DNA from: a virus
DNA length: 64,000 bases
Direction: 5' to 3' (one strand)
IMG/VR virus record: IMGVR_UViG_3300045902_000666
Location: 1 to 64,000 of that record
Of the stretch, positions 16,583 through 60,486 are shown one piece after another. The notes beneath the pieces were generated by a model. The model was given only the letters and a program-made list of their open reading frames with translations. It was not told the origin of the DNA and ran no database searches. Made by a program: the position numbers and the translations under genes. The stretch's first letter is position 1. Every line of letters starts with the position of its first letter.

Positions 16583-17269
16583 TTATTTTCTAAGTAATTC
16601 AAGTTTCCCTTTCATAAACTGTTTTAAACTTGCAGACTTTTCAGTTTCATGGTCTATAACTTTATCATCTTTTTCACGATAAGTTCTTTTTTTATCAGAC
16701 CTTTCACCACTTCCGATTTGATTACTTCTTTCTTCAGCAACATCCTCTTCATGTCCTGTTCTATAAAAACAGTTTACTCTTTTCTTTATTTCAATCAACG
16801 CTTCTTCTTTGTTCTTATGTTGATTTCTTCCATCTCTTACAACTTTTATTCCAGTTGGGAGGTGTACGATTACAACACATGAATCAGTAGTATTCTTATG
16901 TTGACCTCCGTTTCCTGTTCCTCTTGTGAATTCTATATGAAGTTCATTCATATTTACTTCAACATTTTGGTATAATTTAGAGTCTAATACTGCAACTGTA
17001 ATTGTTGAAGTGTGAACTCTTCCTCTTCTTTCAGTCGGAGGTACTCTTTGCCATCTATGGCCTCCAGATTCATTTTGAAAATATTTCTTGACTCCATCAC
17101 CTGTCAGTCAGATGGAAACAAGACCTTCCTTTCAGTGTTCGTTTGTTACAACGAAATTGTTGTTTCTGGCTGCTTTGATGTACATAGCAGCCATGTCTCT
17201 CACAAGGAGCTTAGAATCTTCACCGCCTTCTGCAGCTCTAAGTTCTAAAATAATTGTTTCTTTTTTCAT
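16583..17269 (-). CDS. class I peptide release factor (RF1-like, no domain 1) with two in-frame TGA codons
   Basis: ELRAAEGGEDS, ESGGHRWQRVPPTE..GRVHTS and GGQ in one frame; TGA at 17132-17134 and 17108-17110. Confidence 0.85.
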
Positions 17270-17321
17270 GGCTGTTTTTATTTTGTTATAAATATACAAT
17301 TTTTTGTCTACAAAAAAAAAA

Positions 17322-17588
17322 TTATTCATATTTTTTTGTTAATTCCCATTCTTCAATTTCTTCTCCGGGTAAATACCACCTATCTTTTTCATAATTCCAG
17401 TGGCGATTATCATAAATTTGAAAAGATATGAAAAACCCTAAAATTTCAACATATTTGTACAAACCTGCATGGTCCTCTTTACGTGTTAATTTTAATTTAA
17501 AATCAAACCAGTTCCATTCAGGAAATCTCCCAATCTCGAACTCCCAAGATTTATTTTTTGTTATCGTTCCGAAAGTATTCCAATACAT
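17322..17588 (-). CDS. hypothetical protein
   Basis: 88-aa ORF. Confidence 0.6.
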   Translation of the reverse strand: MYWNTFGTITKNKSWEFEIGRFPEWNWFDFKLKLTRKEDHAGLYKYVEILGFFISFQIYDNRHWNYEKDRWYLPGEEIEEWELTKKYE

Positions 17589-18595: not shown

Positions 18596-18693
18596 TTAAC
18601 TCAAAGAACTTTCTAAAATTATGTTGCAAACATAATAACTTGCAAAATAAAAGTCAAGTTTTTTTTAAAAAAAATTGAAAAAAAATTTTTTGC

Positions 18694-18767
18694 CCGCCCC
18701 AGTAGGCCTCGAACCCACGACCCTCGGACCTAGGAGACCGATGCTCTACCAACTGAGCTATGGGGGG
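18694..18767 (-). tRNA. tRNA-like gene with enlarged anticodon loop (Arg-CCT?)
   Basis: Normal D and T arms; loop CTCCTAGG. Confidence 0.6.
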
Positions 18768-18772
18768 AATTG

Positions 18773-49880: not shown

Positions 49881-50276
49881 TTAATCTCCAGAACCGTATT
49901 GGTCAATCCACTTTTGCTTGCCAGTATTATAGTTATTTTTCCAGTCTATAAATTCTGGATTTATAACTTTCACTTTATCAAACCAAGCACCTCCAGGATT
50001 TAAAGAAAATACTGGGGTTGTACCAAATTTTTTTTCAAATTGATTTACATAGTTTATAACATCATCTTGTCCAAAAACAGTTGACATAGCATCACCTTCA
50101 TCTACAGAAGGAATCATTACTTCACCCCATCCTTTAACACCCCTATTCTTCCAATCAACATTCGCTCTTACATCTGGGAGTTTATTAAATGGGTAGTGAT
50201 TAAGGATTTCTAAACCCTCAATTCCGCCAGCATTTTGCTGCTCCAACATCTCTCTGATAATTTTTCTAATTTTCAT
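49881..50276 (-). CDS. putative virion-internal protein
   Basis: MKIRKIIREMLE. Confidence 0.65.
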   Translation of the reverse strand: MKIRKIIREMLEQQNAGGIEGLEILNHYPFNKLPDVRANVDWKNRGVKGWGEVMIPSVDEGDAMSTVFGQDDVINYVNQFEKKFGTTPVFSLNPGGAWFDKVKVINPEFIDWKNNYNTGKQKWIDQYGSGD

Positions 50277-50342
50277 AGCAAAAACTTTACAATAAATAGG
50301 TCCAAAAACACAAAACCCTAGCTATTTAGCTAGGATTTTATA

Positions 50343-51050
50343 CTACCAGTACATCCATCTTGCAGAATGACGATGGTTATATCTGTATTCATAATCATCA
50401 TAATCACCTACTTTAGAAAGGTTTCTTTTCAAAGCTTTCTTGTTGTAATTTCTGTCAGAACGAGTAAAATCCTTTCTATAATCTTTAGGAGGATTTCTTC
50501 TTCCATCATACCAGCCACCAACTGGCCAGAACTTTTTCTGACACAAATAACCCTTTCTTTCAGACTCCTCTTTAGCCAACACAGAATCAAATTCTTGATA
50601 GTGTGTAATCCAGCGAGGTTTGATTTTTTCTACGAAGTAGTAGCTAGGAAATGTACATTCATATATTTTTCTGAATGGACTCCAACGTCTACTCCAAGGG
50701 CTAATTGCTGAAAAATACTTTTTAACAGCAGGATGCAATTTTTCATAAGTTTCCTCAGAAATATCTCCAAATCCCGGATAAAGATATTCGTATTTTCCTT
50801 TGCTTAATTTTGTTCTGAAGGATTTATCTTTACAAAAAACCCTGTGTCCAACAAGTTTTAAGCATTCATAAAATACCCAAGCATCATCACGATTTTTGAT
50901 GTCTTCTCTAAGGTCATGAAATTTGTAATAGCCGTCTTTGTACGGTTTTTCAAGTTCAACCCAATTTTTATTGCGTTGAATTTTCCAGATTTGATAAATT
51001 TCTTTTTCAAGTCTGAGTTTCTCTTTGTAGAGAGGATGTTTTGAATTCAT
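50343..51050 (-). CDS. basic aromatic-rich protein under uORF control
   Basis: 235 aa; uORF 51071-51115 and hairpin before the ATG. Confidence 0.7.
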   Translation of the reverse strand: MNSKHPLYKEKLRLEKEIYQIWKIQRNKNWVELEKPYKDGYYKFHDLREDIKNRDDAWVFYECLKLVGHRVFCKDKSFRTKLSKGKYEYLYPGFGDISEETYEKLHPAVKKYFSAISPWSRRWSPFRKIYECTFPSYYFVEKIKPRWITHYQEFDSVLAKEESERKGYLCQKKFWPVGGWYDGRRNPPKDYRKDFTRSDRNYNKKALKRNLSKVGDYDDYEYRYNHRHSARWMYW

Positions 51051-51070
51051 TGGCGTTTAAGTTTATTTAC

Positions 51071-54496: not shown

Positions 54497-54763
54497 TTAT
54501 TTTTTTTGCAACTTGTTGATTCCGAACCATTCATCCCTTGTTATTTTTATTACAAAAGAAGTGTTAATCTGGAAAAAATTCTTTATCTGGGAACAAATTT
54601 CATATTTTTCTAAATTAGAATAATATTCTAAAGCCTCTTCTATTATGAACGTAGGTATTAGTTCTTCATCTATTTTTTTCATTGTGTTATTGGCCAAAGA
54701 AGCTATACCATGATACATCATTATATCAATCTTACACGCTTTATGTTCTCCTTTAAGCTTCAT
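54497..54763 (-). CDS. hypothetical protein
   Basis: 88-aa ORF. Confidence 0.55.
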   Translation of the reverse strand: MKLKGEHKACKIDIMMYHGIASLANNTMKKIDEELIPTFIIEEALEYYSNLEKYEICSQIKNFFQINTSFVIKITRDEWFGINKLQKK

Positions 54764-54769
54764 ACATAA

Positions 54770-55057
54770 CTAACAATAAACAGTGGGCGCACCTGGTCTT
54801 CCAGATTTTCCTTGTCTAATAGAACCGTTTAATATATCATTTAACGAAGTGTTTTCTTCGGTAAATGTATTGCAAATAGGTTTACCTGCTGTGCTATCAG
54901 TTAGCAATTCATAAGAGACACTTCTATTTGGAGTTACTTTATTAAAAACTAACTGTAAGTGGTCTTTAATAATTTCCACTTGTTTAGGAGTTAGTTTTTT
55001 ATCTCCAGATAATTCAAAAAACCCTTGTAACCAATAACAAAAATCTGTTGCTTCCAT
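54770..55057 (-). CDS. hypothetical phage protein
   Basis: FCYWLQGFFEL..IKDHLQLVF. Confidence 0.7.
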   Translation of the reverse strand: MEATDFCYWLQGFFELSGDKKLTPKQVEIIKDHLQLVFNKVTPNRSVSYELLTDSTAGKPICNTFTEENTSLNDILNGSIRQGKSGRPGAPTVYC

Positions 55058-55096
55058 AACTTATTTTTTATAAATACATCTATAATTTTAGAAAAT

Positions 55097-55498: not shown

Positions 55499-56113
55499 TT
55501 ATTTTAACTTCCACTCTAAATACTTATCCGAATCTGTGGGTTCAAATTTACCACTTAACAATATTGGCCCTGTTGTAGCCCAATTAGCTCCTTGGTTTTT
55601 ACCATTTTCATCTAAAATATCCCAATCATAAAACTTCCATTTACCTTCTTTTTTCTGAAGAAACTTCCAACCATTTTTATATTTCTCACAAACTTCATCT
55701 AAATACTTTTGGTCGCTTGCTTTTTTATATGAAATATAATCATCTAGTTCTTCTTTCAAGTCTTTAAAAAAACTATCTATTCTTTCTTGTCTATGTGCCG
55801 GGATAGCATAACCTCCAAATCTAAATTCAAATTTTGATTTTAATTTCTCAAATAAACCGTCTTCTGGCTCTTGATAACTATTCCACTCTAAATCATCCCA
55901 AATATAATCATTTGGCTCTTTGGTCCATATATCCACTTTTGTTCCTTCTGTAGAAGTTATATATTTCCCATCCTCATCAATATAAGAATAAGGACCGTCC
56001 CAATAACCCTCTTTTAATTCTGCAAAAATTGGTACTCCTCCACTCATTCTTACGTAAGCTTCTCCAGAAGGGTCGGCATCTTGCAGCATTTTAATAAAAT
56101 CTTTAGTTTTCAT
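55499..56113 (-). CDS. hypothetical protein
   Basis: 204-aa ORF. Confidence 0.65.
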   Translation of the reverse strand: MKTKDFIKMLQDADPSGEAYVRMSGGVPIFAELKEGYWDGPYSYIDEDGKYITSTEGTKVDIWTKEPNDYIWDDLEWNSYQEPEDGLFEKLKSKFEFRFGGYAIPAHRQERIDSFFKDLKEELDDYISYKKASDQKYLDEVCEKYKNGWKFLQKKEGKWKFYDWDILDENGKNQGANWATTGPILLSGKFEPTDSDKYLEWKLK

Positions 56114-56473
56114 ATACTCCTCCTTCTTCTTTAAAGGATTTTTTTAGCTGCTTATACTTATCTTTTGTTTCTAACATTAATTTAAGTTGAGCTTTAAATT
56201 CCTTTCTTGATTTTTCAACTTCTTGCTGTTCAACAGAAGGAAGGACTTGAACTTTCTTTTCATCTTTTAAAAATCTTTTGTATACAAAAGCTAATAACAC
56301 ATTCATCTTTCTTCTGCTATTTGCTTTCATGAAAAAATAGATTTTATTTGCAAGCTTCTTTTTTGAAGAACGTGTTGCATTTTCTAAATCTATATTTTCA
56401 ATAGAAGATAAATCACCTTCTAGTACAAGATTTTTTTCTGAAATTCTTTTTTTAATTTCAATTACAGCATTCT

Positions 56474-57786
56474 GTGAACTACCCACCCACGCCAGAGGCG
56501 ATGGGTTGGGCTTCAAGGGTCAACGCTCCTACCAACGTAGGCAACTTACCTTGATTTTTCCTATCCGTTCCAGATAAGATATTTTTTAATGCAAATGATT
56601 TAATGTTTATGGCAGCATTTACATCTCTTGAAACTAAACCCCCACACTTAGGGCAAGTCCATTCCCTATCGGATAGGGTTAGGTCCTTGTTTATATACCC
56701 GCAATTTGCGTGTAGCTTAGATGATGGTTCAAATCTACCAATTTTCAGAATGTTTTTTCCGTACCATTCTGCCTTGTATTCCAACATTGTTACGAAGGTT
56801 GACCAACTCGCATCACTTATTGATTGCGCAAGTTTGTGGTTCTTTACCATATTGGAAACCGCTAAATCTTCAATCGCTAAACTATCGTGGTTCTTGATTA
56901 GTTCACTTGAAGTTTTATGTAGAAAGTCTTTTCTTTGATTAGCTACTTTTTCGTGGATTACGGCTAATTTTTGCTTTGTTCTTTTACCTTTATGTTTTGA
57001 GTATTTGCGTTGTACATACTTTAATTTAGATTGTGCTTTACAAAGGTGTTTTGGATTTTCAAACTCTTTTCCGTCAGATGCGACAAGATATGTTTTAATT
57101 CCTAAATCAATTCCAATTGTTGTATTTTCTCTAACCCTTGCTTTTGGTTTTGCATCTTCTCCTGTATCACATAGTATTGAAACAAAATATTTTCCTGTCG
57201 GTGTTCTGCTTATTGTCGCTTGCCTAATCGCACCTTTAATTGGTCTGTGTACAACAATATCAATTCCTTTCCTGAACTTTGGGATAACCAACTTGCCGTT
57301 TTTTAATGAAACATTTTGTGGAATATTGAAACTACCACCGCTTGATTTCTTTTTAAATTTTGGAAACTTGTTTTGCCCTTTAAAAAATGCAGTGTATGAT
57401 TTGTCTAAGTTAGTTATTGATTGTTGCAAAGATTGACTGTTAATTTCTTTAAGCCATTCGCATTCTGTTTTAAGGTCTTTTAACTGGCTGTGCAAAGCAA
57501 AACAACTTAAATTAATCTTGTAACCTGCCCAAGCCATTTGCTTAACTTCTAAAGCGAGATTATACACAAAACGACTTGCTCCGATATGCTTATTAAGCAA
57601 GACGGTTTGTTCTTTTGTAGGGGTTAATCTATATTTAAAAGCTTTTAACATCAATTATAAATATGTGCAAATATATAAAAGTTTAAAGAAACCGCAAAAT
57701 TTATTTAAAACGATTATTAACTTTGTATTAGGTCGCTTTCATCCCACCCACAGCAAAGCTGATGAGTGGGCTTTCGCTCCCTCTAT
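56474..57786 (-). mobile_element. IS200/IS605-family (IS1341-like, tnpB-only) element
   Basis: Subterminal hairpins at both ends; inserted after TTAC; right end TCAC. Confidence 0.85.
56479..57654 (-). CDS. tnpB: TnpB RNA-guided nuclease
   Basis: KAFKYRL HTH, GIDLG, IEDL, Zn finger, RDVNAAIN. Confidence 0.95.
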   Translation of the reverse strand: MMLKAFKYRLTPTKEQTVLLNKHIGASRFVYNLALEVKQMAWAGYKINLSCFALHSQLKDLKTECEWLKEINSQSLQQSITNLDKSYTAFFKGQNKFPKFKKKSSGGSFNIPQNVSLKNGKLVIPKFRKGIDIVVHRPIKGAIRQATISRTPTGKYFVSILCDTGEDAKPKARVRENTTIGIDLGIKTYLVASDGKEFENPKHLCKAQSKLKYVQRKYSKHKGKRTKQKLAVIHEKVANQRKDFLHKTSSELIKNHDSLAIEDLAVSNMVKNHKLAQSISDASWSTFVTMLEYKAEWYGKNILKIGRFEPSSKLHANCGYINKDLTLSDREWTCPKCGGLVSRDVNAAINIKSFALKNILSGTDRKNQGKLPTLVGALTLEAQPIASGVGG

Positions 57787-58020
57787 GTAAATTTGTTTTG
57801 ATGGCTTGATTACTATAATCTAAGCCTGTTTTTTTTGAAGTTTCCATGTTTAATTTTTTTTATGATTAATATTTTATATGCTTTTTTCCATATAAACACC
57901 ATTTATATGGATTTTTTAATATAAGGTCTAGACCTTATAATAACCTTTAAGGTTATAGCCTGATAATAAAACAGGGCTTCTAATTTTTATCTATTTATTT
58001 TTCATAACATTTATTTTTTG

Positions 58021-58091
58021 TGCGAGTAATGGGATTCGAACCCATGAACAAGCTTTTAGAGAGCTTCACTTTACCACTAAATTATACTCGC
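58021..58091 (-). tRNA. amber suppressor tRNA (CTA anticodon)
   Basis: AAGCT-CTCTAAA-AGCTT arm; perfect acceptor and T stems. Confidence 0.85.
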
Positions 58092-58096
58092 ATTTG

Positions 58097-58170
58097 AGCA
58101 GGAGGATGGATTCGAACCACCGTACTTTGGGATTGCGGCCCAACGCTTGAACACGCTCAGCTACTCCTGC
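58097..58170 (-). tRNA. tRNA-Cys(GCA), C at position 33
   Basis: TTGGG-CCGCAAT-CCCAA arm, U73. Confidence 0.75.
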
Positions 58171-58228
58171 ATGGTGGGAGTTGAAGATTCTCACTTCAAG
58201 GTCCTACTTCAGACCACTCCCTAATTTT

Positions 58229-58489
58229 TTATTCTATCAAAGCAATTATCATTTTATCTTGTTCAACAATTTTCAATTTACCTCTAAACATTAAAGAACC
58301 TTTTGTATGCTCATTGCCCGGAGTTTCTTTTGTAGAAAAGCCAACAGTAGAATCTAAATGATTAACATAAAAACTTTGACCTTTATGTTTCACAACCCAA
58401 GGAGCTATTGTAGTATCTTCATTATGTTTCTTGTTATAATGAAATACTATCCTTTGGACAATATTATCTTGAAAGATAACCTTATTCAT
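58229..58489 (-). CDS. hypothetical protein
   Basis: 86-aa ORF overlapping the upstream stop. Confidence 0.6.
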   Translation of the reverse strand: MNKVIFQDNIVQRIVFHYNKKHNEDTTIAPWVVKHKGQSFYVNHLDSTVGFSTKETPGNEHTKGSLMFRGKLKIVEQDKMIIALIE

Positions 58490-58874
58490 TGGTCACCTCC
58501 TTTTCTTTTTTATGAAACTTAGTGTATTCTTTTAAAGCCAATGGTAAATTAGAAACAAGTTTATATGTTTCCTCGTGTGGCTCTAAAATTATAGATGTGA
58601 TTTGATTATCTATATCAGGCTCTGTAAATGCAGAATGCTTAATACCTTTTTCAGAAGCTTTTAATAAAAGTTCCTTTAAAGCATTTTCATCTTTAACAGA
58701 TAATAAAATAAGATAATTTGAATTGTGATACCACTGATAAAAAGCCTCAGGATGCTCATAAGAAAATTGCGGTATCGAGTGTGCAGATTGCACTGCCTGA
58801 TAACCAGGCGTAATATCCCTTCTGGTTACGATAACCAATTTAGGATTTTTGTTATTTGTAGTAATCTACTTCAT
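58482..58874 (-). CDS. Pth2-like peptidyl-tRNA hydrolase with in-frame TAG at codon 3
   Basis: IVTRRD..G..AVQSAH..F.EPD...T; ATG AAG TAG ATT.. in frame. Confidence 0.7.
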
Positions 58875-59116
58875 GACTTTTTTTTTCTTTTAAATATATG
58901 AAAAATTTATTTTTTCAAAAAATTGTATGAACAAAGATAATAAAAAGTTTTTGATAAAGTCAAGTGATTTCAAAAAATTTTTTCATAAAACAACTTTGTC
59001 CACAAAAAACTAGACCTAAAAATGTGATAATCAATATGTTACAACCACTTGTTAAAAAATAAAAAATTATTGCAATCCATGTCGTATTACAATAAATTTT
59101 CCTCACATTTATAATT

Positions 59117-59623: not shown

Positions 59624-59806
59624 TCAAAAAAGACTAAGAAGCCATCTTTTCCAACGGTCTTTCTTTCTCCAATTTTTTATCCAATGATAAGTTAACCAAA
59701 GATAATATCTTCTTAGAATCATATTTGGTTTCATGCACTCTTGAATAAATAGTCCAAATCCTACTATCGCTAGGGAGAAGAGTAATAAATTTATTTGTAT
59801 TTCCAT
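59624..59806 (-). pseudogene. truncated inverted paralogue of 59117..59458
   Basis: Shares RRYYLWLTYHWIxxWRKKDRWKR. Confidence 0.6.
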
Positions 59807-60486
59807 ATAAATCCACCTGCCGTATTTCTATATCCTCTACATACCATATTTATTTTATTATTAGAAATACCAATACTTCTTTGAACCTCTTGAGCAGATG
59901 GCCATTCCTTTATAATTTTTCCATCTTTATCACATTGTAAAACTGCTATACCTCTTTTGTTAATTAGTGCTTTTCCTATTTTGTTTTTATGTTCTTCTGT
60001 AATTTTACTTCCATTCTTAACTCCAGGTTTTGATTTAAAAAACTCGGAATCTATTGTAAATTTCTTGCCTTTTACAAAAGGTATCCCTCCTGTTTTAAAT
60101 CCATGAGTATTACCTTTTAATTTAGCTGAAATTTTTAATTTTGATTCAATAGACAACTCATTATAATCTCCGCCATTAGTAGAATTAACTAATTTAAACC
60201 CCCAAGATTTATATAGAGATATATAATACGGTTCCCAGAATTTATAATCATCAACTTCATCTAAAAACTCTATTTTTGGTATGTGGTTTTTATCTAATAA
60301 TTTTTTAATCCAACAATCTTTGTGAGTTTGTTTGAATTTAGATTTTTGTATATGTTCTTTAAGCCTCTTATTTAAAGACCTAGATGTAATACCAATGTAT
60401 TTTATTTCATTAGTTTCAGGGTCTATTAAACAATAAACCTTAAACTTAAGCCGCTTTTCCATAGACAAAAATTTTTTTAGTATCAT
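59791..60486 (-). CDS. GIY-YIG homing endonuclease with NUMOD1-like tail
   Basis: VYCLIDP..YIGIT..RL.EH; TAGGFIWKY. Confidence 0.85.
   Translation of the reverse strand: MILKKFLSMEKRLKFKVYCLIDPETNEIKYIGITSRSLNKRLKEHIQKSKFKQTHKDCWIKKLLDKNHIPKIEFLDEVDDYKFWEPYYISLYKSWGFKLVNSTNGGDYNELSIESKLKISAKLKGNTHGFKTGGIPFVKGKKFTIDSEFFKSKPGVKNGSKITEEHKNKIGKALINKRGIAVLQCDKDGKIIKEWPSAQEVQRSIGISNNKINMVCRGYRNTAGGFIWKYK

What the first reader, a model, noticed from the sequence alone, without database searches (positions are those of the whole stretch)
58021..58874. Amber-interrupted Pth2-like gene upstream of an amber suppressor tRNA
Seen: after a promoter the first ATG (58874) reads ATG AAG TAG and then continues in frame into the hydrolase; the same strand then gives tRNA-Cys and a CTA-anticodon tRNA. 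Other genes end in TAG normally, so there is no genome-wide recoding here. Established: two-codon minigenes cause peptidyl-tRNA drop-off and drain Pth (lambda bar). Inference: a UAG read-through or drop-off sensor, mirroring the UGA-gated release factor.
Basis: partly seen in the sequence, partly recalled or inferred. Interest (0 to 1): 0.8.

Follow-up and report, generated by a model that had tools for sequence, protein, structure and literature searches.

The report
Amber-gated phage Pth2 gene with suppressor tRNA
A large phage puts the stop codon UAG at codon 3 of a small tRNA-cleaning (Pth2-type) enzyme gene and carries its own UAG-reading tRNA 394 bases downstream; dozens of distant phages keep the same layout, so the enzyme is probably made only while that tRNA overrides the stop.

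Summary
On the minus strand, ATG (58874) AAG TAG (58868-58866) runs in frame into a PTH2-family gene. A partner ORF, tRNA-Cys and a tRNA with anticodon CUA follow on the same strand.

The refutation test fails, because the early TAG is conserved:
- 49 distinct homologues carry ATG, 0-6 sense codons, then TAG. They share 45-75% identity and include the cultured Tenacibaculum phage pT24.
- In 40 of these, no ATG, GTG or TTG lies between the TAG and the invariant domain start.
- On the family tree the TAG was lost once.
- In that no-TAG clade a sense codon occupies the same place, behind the same ATG.
- A tRNA(CUA) lies within 2.6 kb on the same strand in 38 of 49.

The contig, and a complete 405-kb relative, otherwise use the standard code, so this is a position-specific gate and not general recoding.

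Best reading (confidence 0.6): Pth2-like synthesis is coupled to suppressor activity. The drop-off-sensor idea is untested.

A second early-TAG mini-ORF lies just after the tRNA.

I found no paper describing this design. The scan has flagged the same design before on other DNA. Nothing here is experimental.

The parts
58934..58963 (-). Promoter-like site, TTGACT-18-TATCTT, about 60 nt upstream of the ATG
   Evidence: 9 of 12 consensus matches. This is weak evidence: 18 such sites occur in the region against 7.7 in shuffles.
58872..58874 (-). ATG start codon of the gated Pth2-like gene
   Evidence: An in-frame ATG lies 1-7 codons before the TAG in every one of 46 distinct TAG-bearing IMG/VR loci. 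In lineages that use a Shine-Dalgarno site, GGAG sits 4-8 nt before this ATG.
58866..58868 (-). In-frame TAG at codon 3 (the gate)
   Evidence: It is conserved in 49 distinct homologues. It was lost once on the tree. It is kept in roughly 95%-identical strains from other metagenomes (X10 record 2). The next base is A, as in 34 of 46 gates, and is never T.
58482..58874 (-). Pth2-like gene, 130 codons including the TAG
   Evidence: Pfam PF01981. A PDB profile search hits archaeal Pth2 1rzw at E 1e-7. The AlphaFold2 model has pLDDT 86, with residues 1-11 disordered and strand 1 at residues 12-18. Foldseek matches Pth2 and Bit1 structures at TM 0.65-0.77.
58836..58838 (-). TTG, the only canonical start after the TAG (rival start); it encodes the conserved Leu of the K-L motif
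   Evidence: The homologous codon is CTA in the closest relative L001 and TTA, CTT or CTG in most others.
58229..58489 (-). 86-codon partner ORF with a strong Shine-Dalgarno site, overlapping the end of the Pth2 gene by 8 nt
   Evidence: A homologue lies directly downstream of Pth2 in 7 other loci. It is fused to Pth2 in the 195-aa proteins P0012 and P0017. It has no Pfam match.
58096..58170 (-). tRNA-Cys (GCA)
58020..58091 (-). Amber suppressor-type tRNA: anticodon CUA in the loop CUCUAAA
   Evidence: (Rfam tRNA, 65.7 bits; sequence). The same loop occurs in 38 of 54 related tRNA(CUA) genes.
57928..58005 (-). Second early-TAG mini-ORF, MKNK-TAG-IKIRSPV..., with TAG at 57993-57991, starting 15 nt after the tRNA(CUA)
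   Evidence: L001 has MKNM-TAG-IKIRSPG-stop at the same place. Within IKIRSP the two differ by 4 synonymous and 0 non-synonymous changes (chance about 0.002). The motif class is enriched on the Pth2 strand: 7 hits against 1 on the other strand and 0.23 in shuffles.
57845..57990 (-). Structured RNA stretch of three or four hairpins, overlapping and following the mini-ORF and lying before the next gene
   Evidence: MFE -31.3 kcal/mol, z -3.7. The L001 counterpart gives z -5.9. Its function was not established, and no U-tract terminator is present.

Best explanation
Translation of the Pth2-like gene starts at ATG 58874 and meets UAG at codon 3. Without a UAG-reading tRNA, the ribosome ends after Met-Lys and no enzyme is made. 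When the phage's own tRNA(CUA) is present and charged, it inserts an amino acid of unknown identity. That tRNA is encoded 394 nt downstream on the same strand, probably in the same transcript. Translation then continues through a disordered 11-residue tail into the Pth2 fold. Output of the enzyme is therefore tied to how well UAG is being read through, that is, to the balance of suppressor against release factor 1. Shown here: the anatomy, its deep conservation, the lack of alternative starts in most homologues, the pairing with the tRNA, and the standard code elsewhere. Inferred: that read-through actually happens. Also inferred: that the purpose is to supply a peptidyl-tRNA-recycling activity in proportion to stop-codon suppression, which should raise read-through into 3' ends, ribosome stalling and drop-off. 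A second early-UAG mini-ORF just behind the tRNA suggests that the same tRNA gates more than one reading frame in this module.
For: (1) 49 distinct homologues (45-75% identity), from IMG/VR, the 735-kb phage LR756501 and the cultured Tenacibaculum phage pT24, carry ATG, 0-6 sense codons, then TAG just before the domain.
(2) In 40 of 49, the first ATG, GTG or TTG after the TAG lies beyond the invariant T-R motif. In the complete phage G003 it lies 45 codons in.
(3) On a tree of 63 distinct proteins, the TAG state needs only two changes: one loss and one TAG to TAA.
(4) In the no-TAG clade, a sense codon sits exactly where the TAG sits, behind the same ATG. Compare ATG GCG TAG ATT AAA GAA GGC GAT AAG with ATG GCC ACC ATC AAG ATG GGC GAC AAG. 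The codons after the TAG show protein-level conservation with many synonymous changes.
(5) All other Gln codons in these genes are CAA or CAG, so the TAG is position-specific.
(6) A tRNA(CUA) lies within 2.6 kb on the same strand in 38 of 49 TAG loci, against 4 of 16 no-TAG loci.
(7) Where a Shine-Dalgarno site exists, it is placed for the ATG before the TAG.
(8) The base after gate TAGs is A 34, G 11, C 1, T 0. After gene-ending TAGs it is T 15, A 10, G 5, C 2 (p 1e-7).
(9) The contig and the complete relative G003 show no general TAG recoding.
(10) Strains about 95% identical, from other habitats, keep the TAG.
Against: Nothing here is experimental. Expression, charging and amino-acid identity of the tRNA are all unknown, and its isotype could not be inferred. 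In this window a TTG at 58838 could give a nearly complete protein that lacks only one residue of strand 1. The ATG at 58874 has no clear Shine-Dalgarno site, although the partner ORF has a strong one. In mycobacteriophages Bxz1 and Myrna, the TAG is directly followed by a GTG with good Shine-Dalgarno spacing, so the gene may there simply start after the TAG. Genes of this phage end in TAG, so a strong suppressor should have a cost. The bias in the base after the TAG is confounded by a conserved Ile or Val codon at that place. The Lys that follows the conserved Gly in cellular Pth2 is Tyr in this family, so the substrate may not be ordinary peptidyl-tRNA.
Confidence: 0.6

Rival explanations
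1. Start-stop or mini-ORF reading. ATG-AAG-TAG is a two-codon upstream ORF that ends normally at UAG. The enzyme is translated separately, in this phage from TTG 58838 and elsewhere from a near-cognate codon (ATT, ATA, GTT) by re-initiation. The mini-ORF would tune ribosome loading, or cause dipeptidyl-tRNA drop-off as lambda bar minigenes do.
For: A TTG is present in the window. In Bxz1 and Myrna a GTG with good Shine-Dalgarno spacing follows the TAG directly, and in L073 an ATG does. The codon after the TAG is ATH or GTW in about 80% of loci.
Against: 40 of 49 genes have no canonical start before the invariant motif. The codon after the TAG is also ACA, ACT, ACG, AGC, AAA or CTT, which are not starts. 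Ile or Val at that place is equally conserved in no-TAG homologues, where it is internal. This reading does not explain why the stop is always TAG (48 TAG against 1 TAA) or why a tRNA(CUA) is linked to the gene.
Confidence: 0.17
2. General recoding. The phage uses genetic code 15 (TAG read as Gln) in part of its genome, and this TAG is just an ordinary Gln codon with no special role.
For: The phage encodes a tRNA(CUA). The contig is only about 37% of the genome, so late genes are unseen. LR756501 has a second TAG inside its Pth2 gene. Database gene calls translate the TAG as Q.
Against: Coding coverage gains nothing specific from TAG read-through in the contig or in the complete 405-kb relative G003: 0.912 standard, 0.929 with TAG read through, 0.928 with TGA read through. 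Real genes end in TAG. All other Gln codons in the gene family are CAA or CAG, while this one position is TAG in 49 lineages. In no-TAG homologues the residue at this place is Thr, Ser, Pro, Ala, Gln or Lys, so it is not a conserved Gln.
Confidence: 0.08
3. Drop-off sensor. The early UAG makes ribosomes release Met-Lys-tRNA, and the gene senses or responds to the load of peptidyl-tRNA rather than to the suppressor alone.
For: From established knowledge, not tested here: very short ORFs terminate poorly and shed peptidyl-tRNA, which Pth must recycle (lambda bar minigenes). The gate always sits within the first 2-8 codons, and Lys is the most common codon before the TAG (16 of 46).
Against: No feature found here distinguishes this from a plain read-through gate. 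The codon before the TAG varies widely, with 17 different codons seen.
Confidence: 0.1
4. A broken gene, or an assembly or sequencing error.
For: A stop at codon 3 would normally be read this way. Annotators of pT24 moved the start 135 nt downstream.
Against: The TAG is conserved in 49 lineages, with purifying selection on the downstream codons. The same TAG appears in independent assemblies from other habitats.
Confidence: 0.01

Closest known systems
Stop-codon recoding in phages with phage-encoded suppressor tRNAs (TAG read as Gln, 'code 15'; crAss-like and Lak phages; e.g. PMC9523058, PMC10879173)
   Same: A phage-encoded tRNA(CUA), in-frame TAG in a phage gene, and the idea that suppressor availability switches on translation of particular genes.
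   Different: Here the genome otherwise uses the standard code and ends genes in TAG. The in-frame TAG is a single codon at a fixed place (codons 2-8) of one gene family, physically linked to the tRNA, and has been kept through deep divergence.
prfB (RF2) autoregulation through an early in-frame UGA (from my own knowledge)
   Same: A translation-factor-type gene carries an early in-frame stop codon, so its output depends on how that stop is decoded.
   Different: No frameshift site is present, and the frame simply continues. Decoding would be by a dedicated tRNA. The product is a Pth2-like hydrolase, not the factor that reads the stop.
Lambda bar and other two-codon minigenes that cause peptidyl-tRNA drop-off and depend on Pth (from my own knowledge)
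   Same: An ATG-NNN-stop arrangement in a phage, and a functional link to peptidyl-tRNA hydrolase.
   Different: bar minigenes stand alone and are toxic when Pth is limiting. Here the mini-frame continues in frame into the hydrolase gene, the stop is always UAG, and it is paired with a UAG-reading tRNA.
PTH2 genes of jumbo phages (Iyer et al. 2021, PMC7824862)
   Same: The same protein family in large phages, proposed to help ribosome rescue and tRNA recycling.
   Different: That survey mentions neither the early TAG nor the link to suppressor tRNAs ('suppressor' occurs 0 times).
RAPP/RGPP-type translation-arrest leader peptides
   Same: In relatives L059, L077, L061, L037 and L044, the second mini-ORF has R-(A/G)-P-P shortly after its early TAG.
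   Different: The window's copy reads R-S-P-V and L001's reads R-S-P-G, so the defining motif is not met here. Arrest was not tested.

Membership tests
PTH2 peptidyl-tRNA hydrolase family (Pfam PF01981) | Sequence match above the curated Pfam cut-off | tested here: met
   29.3 bits against a cut-off of 23; residues 12-101 match profile positions 2-101 of 115; the family profile hits archaeal Pth2 1rzw/3erj at E 1e-7.
PTH2 peptidyl-tRNA hydrolase family (Pfam PF01981) | Pth2 (Bit1) alpha/beta fold | tested here: met
   model pLDDT 86. Foldseek probability is 1.0 and TM 0.65-0.77 to 1wn2, 2zv3, 3erj, 1q7s and 1xty.
PTH2 peptidyl-tRNA hydrolase family (Pfam PF01981) | Active-site residues of cellular Pth2 | tested here: inconclusive
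   alignment: the Lys after the conserved Gly (G-K..A-Q..H-A) is Tyr in the phage family (P-G-Y-Q-A-V-Q-S-A-H). Invariant E85, D87 and T93 lie near the Asp region. That this Lys is catalytic is my recollection and was not checked.
PTH2 peptidyl-tRNA hydrolase family (Pfam PF01981) | Hydrolysis of peptidyl-tRNA | not testable with these tools
   Needs an enzyme assay or complementation of pth(ts).
Amber suppressor tRNA | Cloverleaf tRNA with anticodon CUA in a 7-nt loop with U33 and A37 | tested here: met
   72 nt, loop CUCUAAA, Rfam tRNA 65.7 bits.
Amber suppressor tRNA | Expressed, aminoacylated and active at UAG | not testable with these tools
   No RNA run holds the stretch. Isotype could not be inferred. 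No PylS or GlnRS is present in the contig.
Code-15 (TAG reassigned) phage | Many genes with in-frame TAG, and TAG not used as a terminator | tested here: not met
   for the contig (about 37% of the genome). for the complete relative G003.
prfB-type autoregulatory stop | Early in-frame stop plus a frameshift site, with the product reading that stop | tested here: not met
   the frame continues without a shift, and the product is not a release factor.
bar-type minigene | Stand-alone two-codon ORF whose expression sequesters tRNA | tested here: inconclusive
   ATG-AAG-TAG is present but continues in frame into a conserved protein. Drop-off cannot be tested here.
RAPP/RGPP arrest peptide (for the second mini-ORF) | R-A/G-P-P motif | tested here: not met
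   the window has RSPV and L001 has RSPG. Relatives L059, L077, L061, L037 and L044 have RAPP or RGPP.

The most novel reading that the evidence does not exclude
The module may be a phage-run controller of stop-codon decoding. A dedicated tRNA(CUA) would act as the key. It would open at least two locks: codon 3 of a Pth2-like enzyme, and an early UAG in a leader peptide of the R-x-P-x type. The enzyme would act specifically on products of suppression, for example peptidyl-tRNA shed after read-through, or the suppressor tRNA itself. Together with the phage's RF1-like gene, which is itself interrupted by UGA, the phage would sense and set the balance between termination and read-through in the infected cell, without changing its genetic code.
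Probability: 0.2. Interest if true: 0.9.

Novelty: new variant of a known kind. Interest (0 to 1): 0.72.

Why it matters
Suppressor tRNAs in phages are usually explained as tools for whole-genome stop-codon reassignment. Here, phages that use the standard code keep an amber suppressor next to one gene whose third codon is UAG, and this pairing has survived very deep divergence. That points to a natural, self-contained tRNA-and-codon switch acting on a translation quality-control enzyme.

If real, it gives a function to orphan suppressor tRNAs in large phages. It also links read-through to peptidyl-tRNA recycling, and offers a compact natural part for orthogonal gene control.

There is a practical consequence as well. 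Gene callers truncate or miss these genes: pT24 gp293 is annotated 135 nt too short.

The hypothesis can be tested directly in a cultured phage.

Tried and rejected
Their 'Q' at the TAG position is probably a gene caller's translation of TAG. L001 and the laid contigs show TAG there.
- The search for related loci with the single protein found nothing. The alignment query worked.
- The sequencing-run search listed no RNA holder, so there is no evidence on expression. In one search, 17 differences were not shown. Retention of the TAG is certain only for the X10 contig, whose 3 differences are all listed.
- Inferring the isotype of the suppressor from its nearest tRNAs gave no consistent answer.
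- I looked for a wider regulon of early-TAG genes in G000 and G003. It was not enriched over TAA and TGA controls.
- The candidate read-through genes at 49884-51056 and 54500-55060 have no Pfam span and no homologue across the TAG. They are most likely pairs of separate genes.
- Rfam found no ribozyme or intron near the tRNA or in the TnpB insertion.
- No intrinsic terminator follows the second mini-ORF, so I do not claim an attenuator there.
- Literature searches linking Pth, suppressor tRNA and phage recoding found no description of this design. The Borges et al. recoding paper was not in the searchable library.
- The genome-contig scan gave only 8 loci, all on MAG contigs that look like phage DNA.

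Full report
**What is in the window.** The window is the first 64 kb of a 101,743-bp phage contig with 32% G+C and 38 tRNA genes. CheckV estimates the contig at about 37% of the phage genome. The DNA comes from hot-spring and microbial-mat metagenomes.

On the minus strand the sequence reads ATG (58874) AAG TAG (58868-58866) ATT ACT ACA AAT AAC AAA AAT CCT AAA TTG (58838). It then continues in frame to TAA at 58482.

Read through the TAG, the 130-residue product matches Pfam PTH2 above the curated cut-off, from residue 12 onward. A family profile finds archaeal Pth2 structures. An AlphaFold2 model has pLDDT 86, a disordered tail at residues 1-11 and strand 1 at residues 12-18. It superposes on Pth2 and Bit1 structures at TM 0.65-0.77.

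Several features follow on the same strand:
- an 86-codon ORF with a strong Shine-Dalgarno site (58489-58229);
- tRNA-Cys (58170-58096);
- a tRNA with anticodon CUA in the loop CUCUAAA (58091-58020), which Rfam scores at 65.7 bits.

A weak promoter-like site lies about 60 nt upstream of the ATG. No terminator-like site lies between the gene and the tRNAs.

I searched IMG/VR with an alignment of 21 homologues and obtained 80 loci. I anchored each locus on the conserved Leu of the K-L-x-x-V-T-R-R-D motif.

- 46 distinct IMG/VR loci carry an in-frame ATG, 0-6 sense codons, a TAG, and then 2-10 sense codons leading into the domain. Every one of them has the ATG.
- With three GenBank phages added, 49 distinct genes carry the TAG.
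- In 40 of these, the first ATG, GTG or TTG after the TAG lies beyond the invariant T-R motif, often 40-120 codons into a gene of about 110 codons.
- One locus, L065, has TAA at the same place.
- On a maximum-likelihood tree of 63 distinct proteins, the TAG state needs only two changes: one loss, in a clade of 16 with SH-aLRT 94, and the one TAG-to-TAA change.

A single substitution would turn TAG into a sense codon, and these proteins are only 45-75% identical. Such retention therefore means selection for the stop codon itself.

Contigs about 95% identical to the window, from estuary and other aquatic metagenomes, also keep the TAG. For run X10 this is certain, because the contig covering 58727-58877 has three differences and all three lie elsewhere.

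**Is the frame translated through the TAG?** Five observations say yes.
- *Same start, sense codon in place of TAG.* In the clade that lost the TAG, a sense codon (Thr, Ser, Pro, Ala, Gln or Lys) sits exactly where the TAG sits in its sister clade, behind the same ATG. Compare ATG GCG TAG ATT AAA GAA GGC GAT AAG CTA with ATG GCC ACC ATC AAG ATG GGC GAC AAG CTC.
- *Coding constraint right after the TAG.* The codons just after the TAG encode a conserved peptide, (I/V)-K-E-G-D-K-L in that group and N-P-K-L between the window and L001. They differ mainly by synonymous changes. In the window, the only substitution seen between the TAG and the TTG in related strains is AAT to AAC, which is synonymous.
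- *Ribosome-binding site.* In lineages with Shine-Dalgarno sites, GGAG lies 4-8 nt before the ATG that precedes the TAG.
- *Position-specific.* Every other Gln codon in these genes is CAA or CAG.
- *Context after the TAG.* The base after the gate TAG is A 34, G 11, C 1, T 0. After gene-ending TAGs in this contig and in G003 it is T 15, A 10, G 5, C 2 (p about 1e-7). From established E. coli work, which I recall rather than tested, a purine after UAG favours suppression and U favours termination. The comparison is confounded by a conserved Ile or Val codon at that place.

The TTG at 58838 is not a conserved start. The homologous Leu codon is CTA in the closest relative L001 and TTA, CTT or CTG in most others.

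**The link with the suppressor tRNA.** ARAGORN finds a tRNA(CUA) on the same strand, between 2.6 kb upstream and 2.1 kb downstream, in 38 of 49 distinct TAG-bearing loci. It finds one in 4 of 16 loci without the TAG. Fisher's test gives p = 2.5e-4, but the no-TAG loci form one clade, so this amounts to a single evolutionary contrast.

In most no-TAG loci, the neighbouring tRNAs have irregular anticodon loops containing U-UCA-A. They may be opal suppressors. The Pth2-like gene thus seems to travel with stop-reading tRNAs in general.

The tRNA(CUA) genes are very diverse, with 51 different sequences. I could not infer which amino acid they carry. 38 of 54 share the loop CUCUAAA.

**This is not general recoding.**
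- In the contig, coding coverage barely changes when TAG is read through.
- Of 123 ORFs, 19 end in TAG. They include TnpB, whose Pfam domains are complete, and back-up stops lie 1-12 codons later.
- Two candidate read-through genes have no support.
- Because the contig is a fragment, I also fetched 400 kb of G003, a complete 405-kb phage with terminal repeats that carries the same gate. Coverage there is 0.912 under the standard code, 0.929 with TAG read through and 0.928 with TGA read through as a control. No block of TAG-containing genes appears.
- A scan of G000 and G003 for other genes with ATG, a few codons, then TAG found no excess over TAA or TGA controls.

**Cultured phages.**
- *Tenacibaculum phage pT24* has ATG AAA TAG ATA ACC and so on, leading into the domain, with an annotated tRNA-Sup 2.5 kb upstream. 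Its CDS gp293 is annotated from an internal ATG 135 nt too late.
- *The 735-kb phage LR756501* has AAGGAG, 8 nt, then ATG TCG TAG ATT. It also has a second TAG inside the gene and two tRNA(CUA) genes.
- *Mycobacteriophages Bxz1 and Myrna* have ATG TAG GTG and GTG TAG GTG respectively, with a tRNA(CUA) 130-340 nt downstream. There the Shine-Dalgarno spacing fits the GTG after the TAG, so that case is ambiguous.

**A second gate.** Fifteen bases after the tRNA(CUA), the window has ATG AAA AAT AAA TAG ATA AAA ATT AGA AGC CCT GTT and so on (58005-57928). L001 has ATG AAA AAT ATG TAG ATC AAA ATA AGA AGT CCA GGA TAA at the same place.

Within I-K-I-R-S-P, four changes are synonymous and none is non-synonymous (chance about 0.002). 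Relatives have M-x-TAG-x-R-(A/G)-P-P mini-frames. There are seven on the Pth2 strand, against one on the other strand and 0.23 in shuffles.

I looked for this after reading earlier scan notes. The window's motif is RSPV, not RAPP, so I do not file it as an arrest peptide. The RNA behind it is strongly structured (z -3.7 in the window, -5.9 in L001), but no terminator is evident.

**Interpretation.** The best-supported mechanism is a suppression gate: the Pth2-like protein is made only when the phage tRNA(CUA) decodes codon 3. Why a phage would want this is inference. One reading is that stop-codon suppression should increase read-through to mRNA ends, ribosome stalling and peptidyl-tRNA release. 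An enzyme that recycles such tRNAs would then be supplied in proportion to suppressor activity. Placing the gate at codons 2-8 keeps failed attempts cheap.

Two cautions apply. The Lys after the conserved Gly of cellular Pth2 is Tyr in this family, so the substrate may differ. The phage also encodes an RF1-like factor interrupted by two TGA codons, which would oppose amber suppression. The circuit may therefore be richer than a simple gate.

The drop-off-sensor version, the mini-ORF with re-initiation version and plain recoding are weighed as rival explanations.

**Novelty.** PTH2 in jumbo phages is published (PMC7824862). Phage recoding through suppressor tRNAs is also published (for example PMC9523058 and PMC10879173). 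I found no paper that describes the early TAG in the Pth2 gene or its linkage to the tRNA.

The scan itself has reported the same design several times on other DNA. I reached the conservation result, before reading those notes. A later check recorded there cautions that nothing is experimental, and that caution applies equally here.

Noticed in passing
window 58229-58489 (-): The 86-codon ORF after the Pth2 gene has no Pfam match. It lies directly downstream of Pth2 in 7 other loci and is fused to Pth2 in the 195-aa database proteins P0012 and P0017, which implies a functional partnership.
   Followed up: partly
window 56100-57850 (-): A TnpB/OrfB_IS605 gene (56479-57654) appears to be inserted inside a gene that is intact in L001. 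The N-terminal piece METSKKTGLDYSNQAIKTNL... is at about 57846. The remainder, ...NAVIEIKKRISEKNLVLEGD..., is in ORF 56103-56516. Rfam found no group I intron, so an IStron is not supported.
   Followed up: partly
window 18692-18768 (-): A G+C-rich (65%) tRNA-like gene in a 32% G+C phage. It has an 8-nt anticodon loop, CUCCUAGG (ARAGORN anticodon 'ccta'), and a C-C mismatch in the acceptor stem. It could be a second UAG-reading tRNA or a four-base (UAGG) reader.
   Followed up: no
window 16586-17338 (-): A short RF1-like release-factor gene (PCRF and RF-1 domains, PPT and GGQ motifs) with two in-frame TGA codons. The first aligns with the conserved Trp of release factors. An RF1-type factor would oppose amber suppression.
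   Followed up: partly
L002, L004, L009, L010, L012, L031, L040, L058, L068, L078 (about 0.3-2 kb from Pth2): In the high-G+C clade that lacks the early TAG, the tRNAs next to Pth2 have irregular 6- or 8-nt anticodon loops containing U-UCA-A. They may be opal suppressors, so Pth2 may accompany stop-reading tRNAs in general.
   Followed up: partly
L065 (IMG/VR contig of 675,678 bp): This locus has the same gate architecture but with TAA instead of TAG (MKET-TAA-IYNRL...). No tRNA lies within the 5-kb flank.
   Followed up: no
L101 (Tenacibaculum phage pT24, NC_049383, 194083-195036): The Pth2 domain is fused to a C-terminal extension of about 190 residues. The annotated CDS gp293 starts at an internal ATG and so lacks the conserved N-terminal motif.
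   Followed up: partly
window 59791-60486 (-): A GIY-YIG/NUMOD homing-endonuclease gene lies just upstream of the Pth2 module.
   Followed up: no
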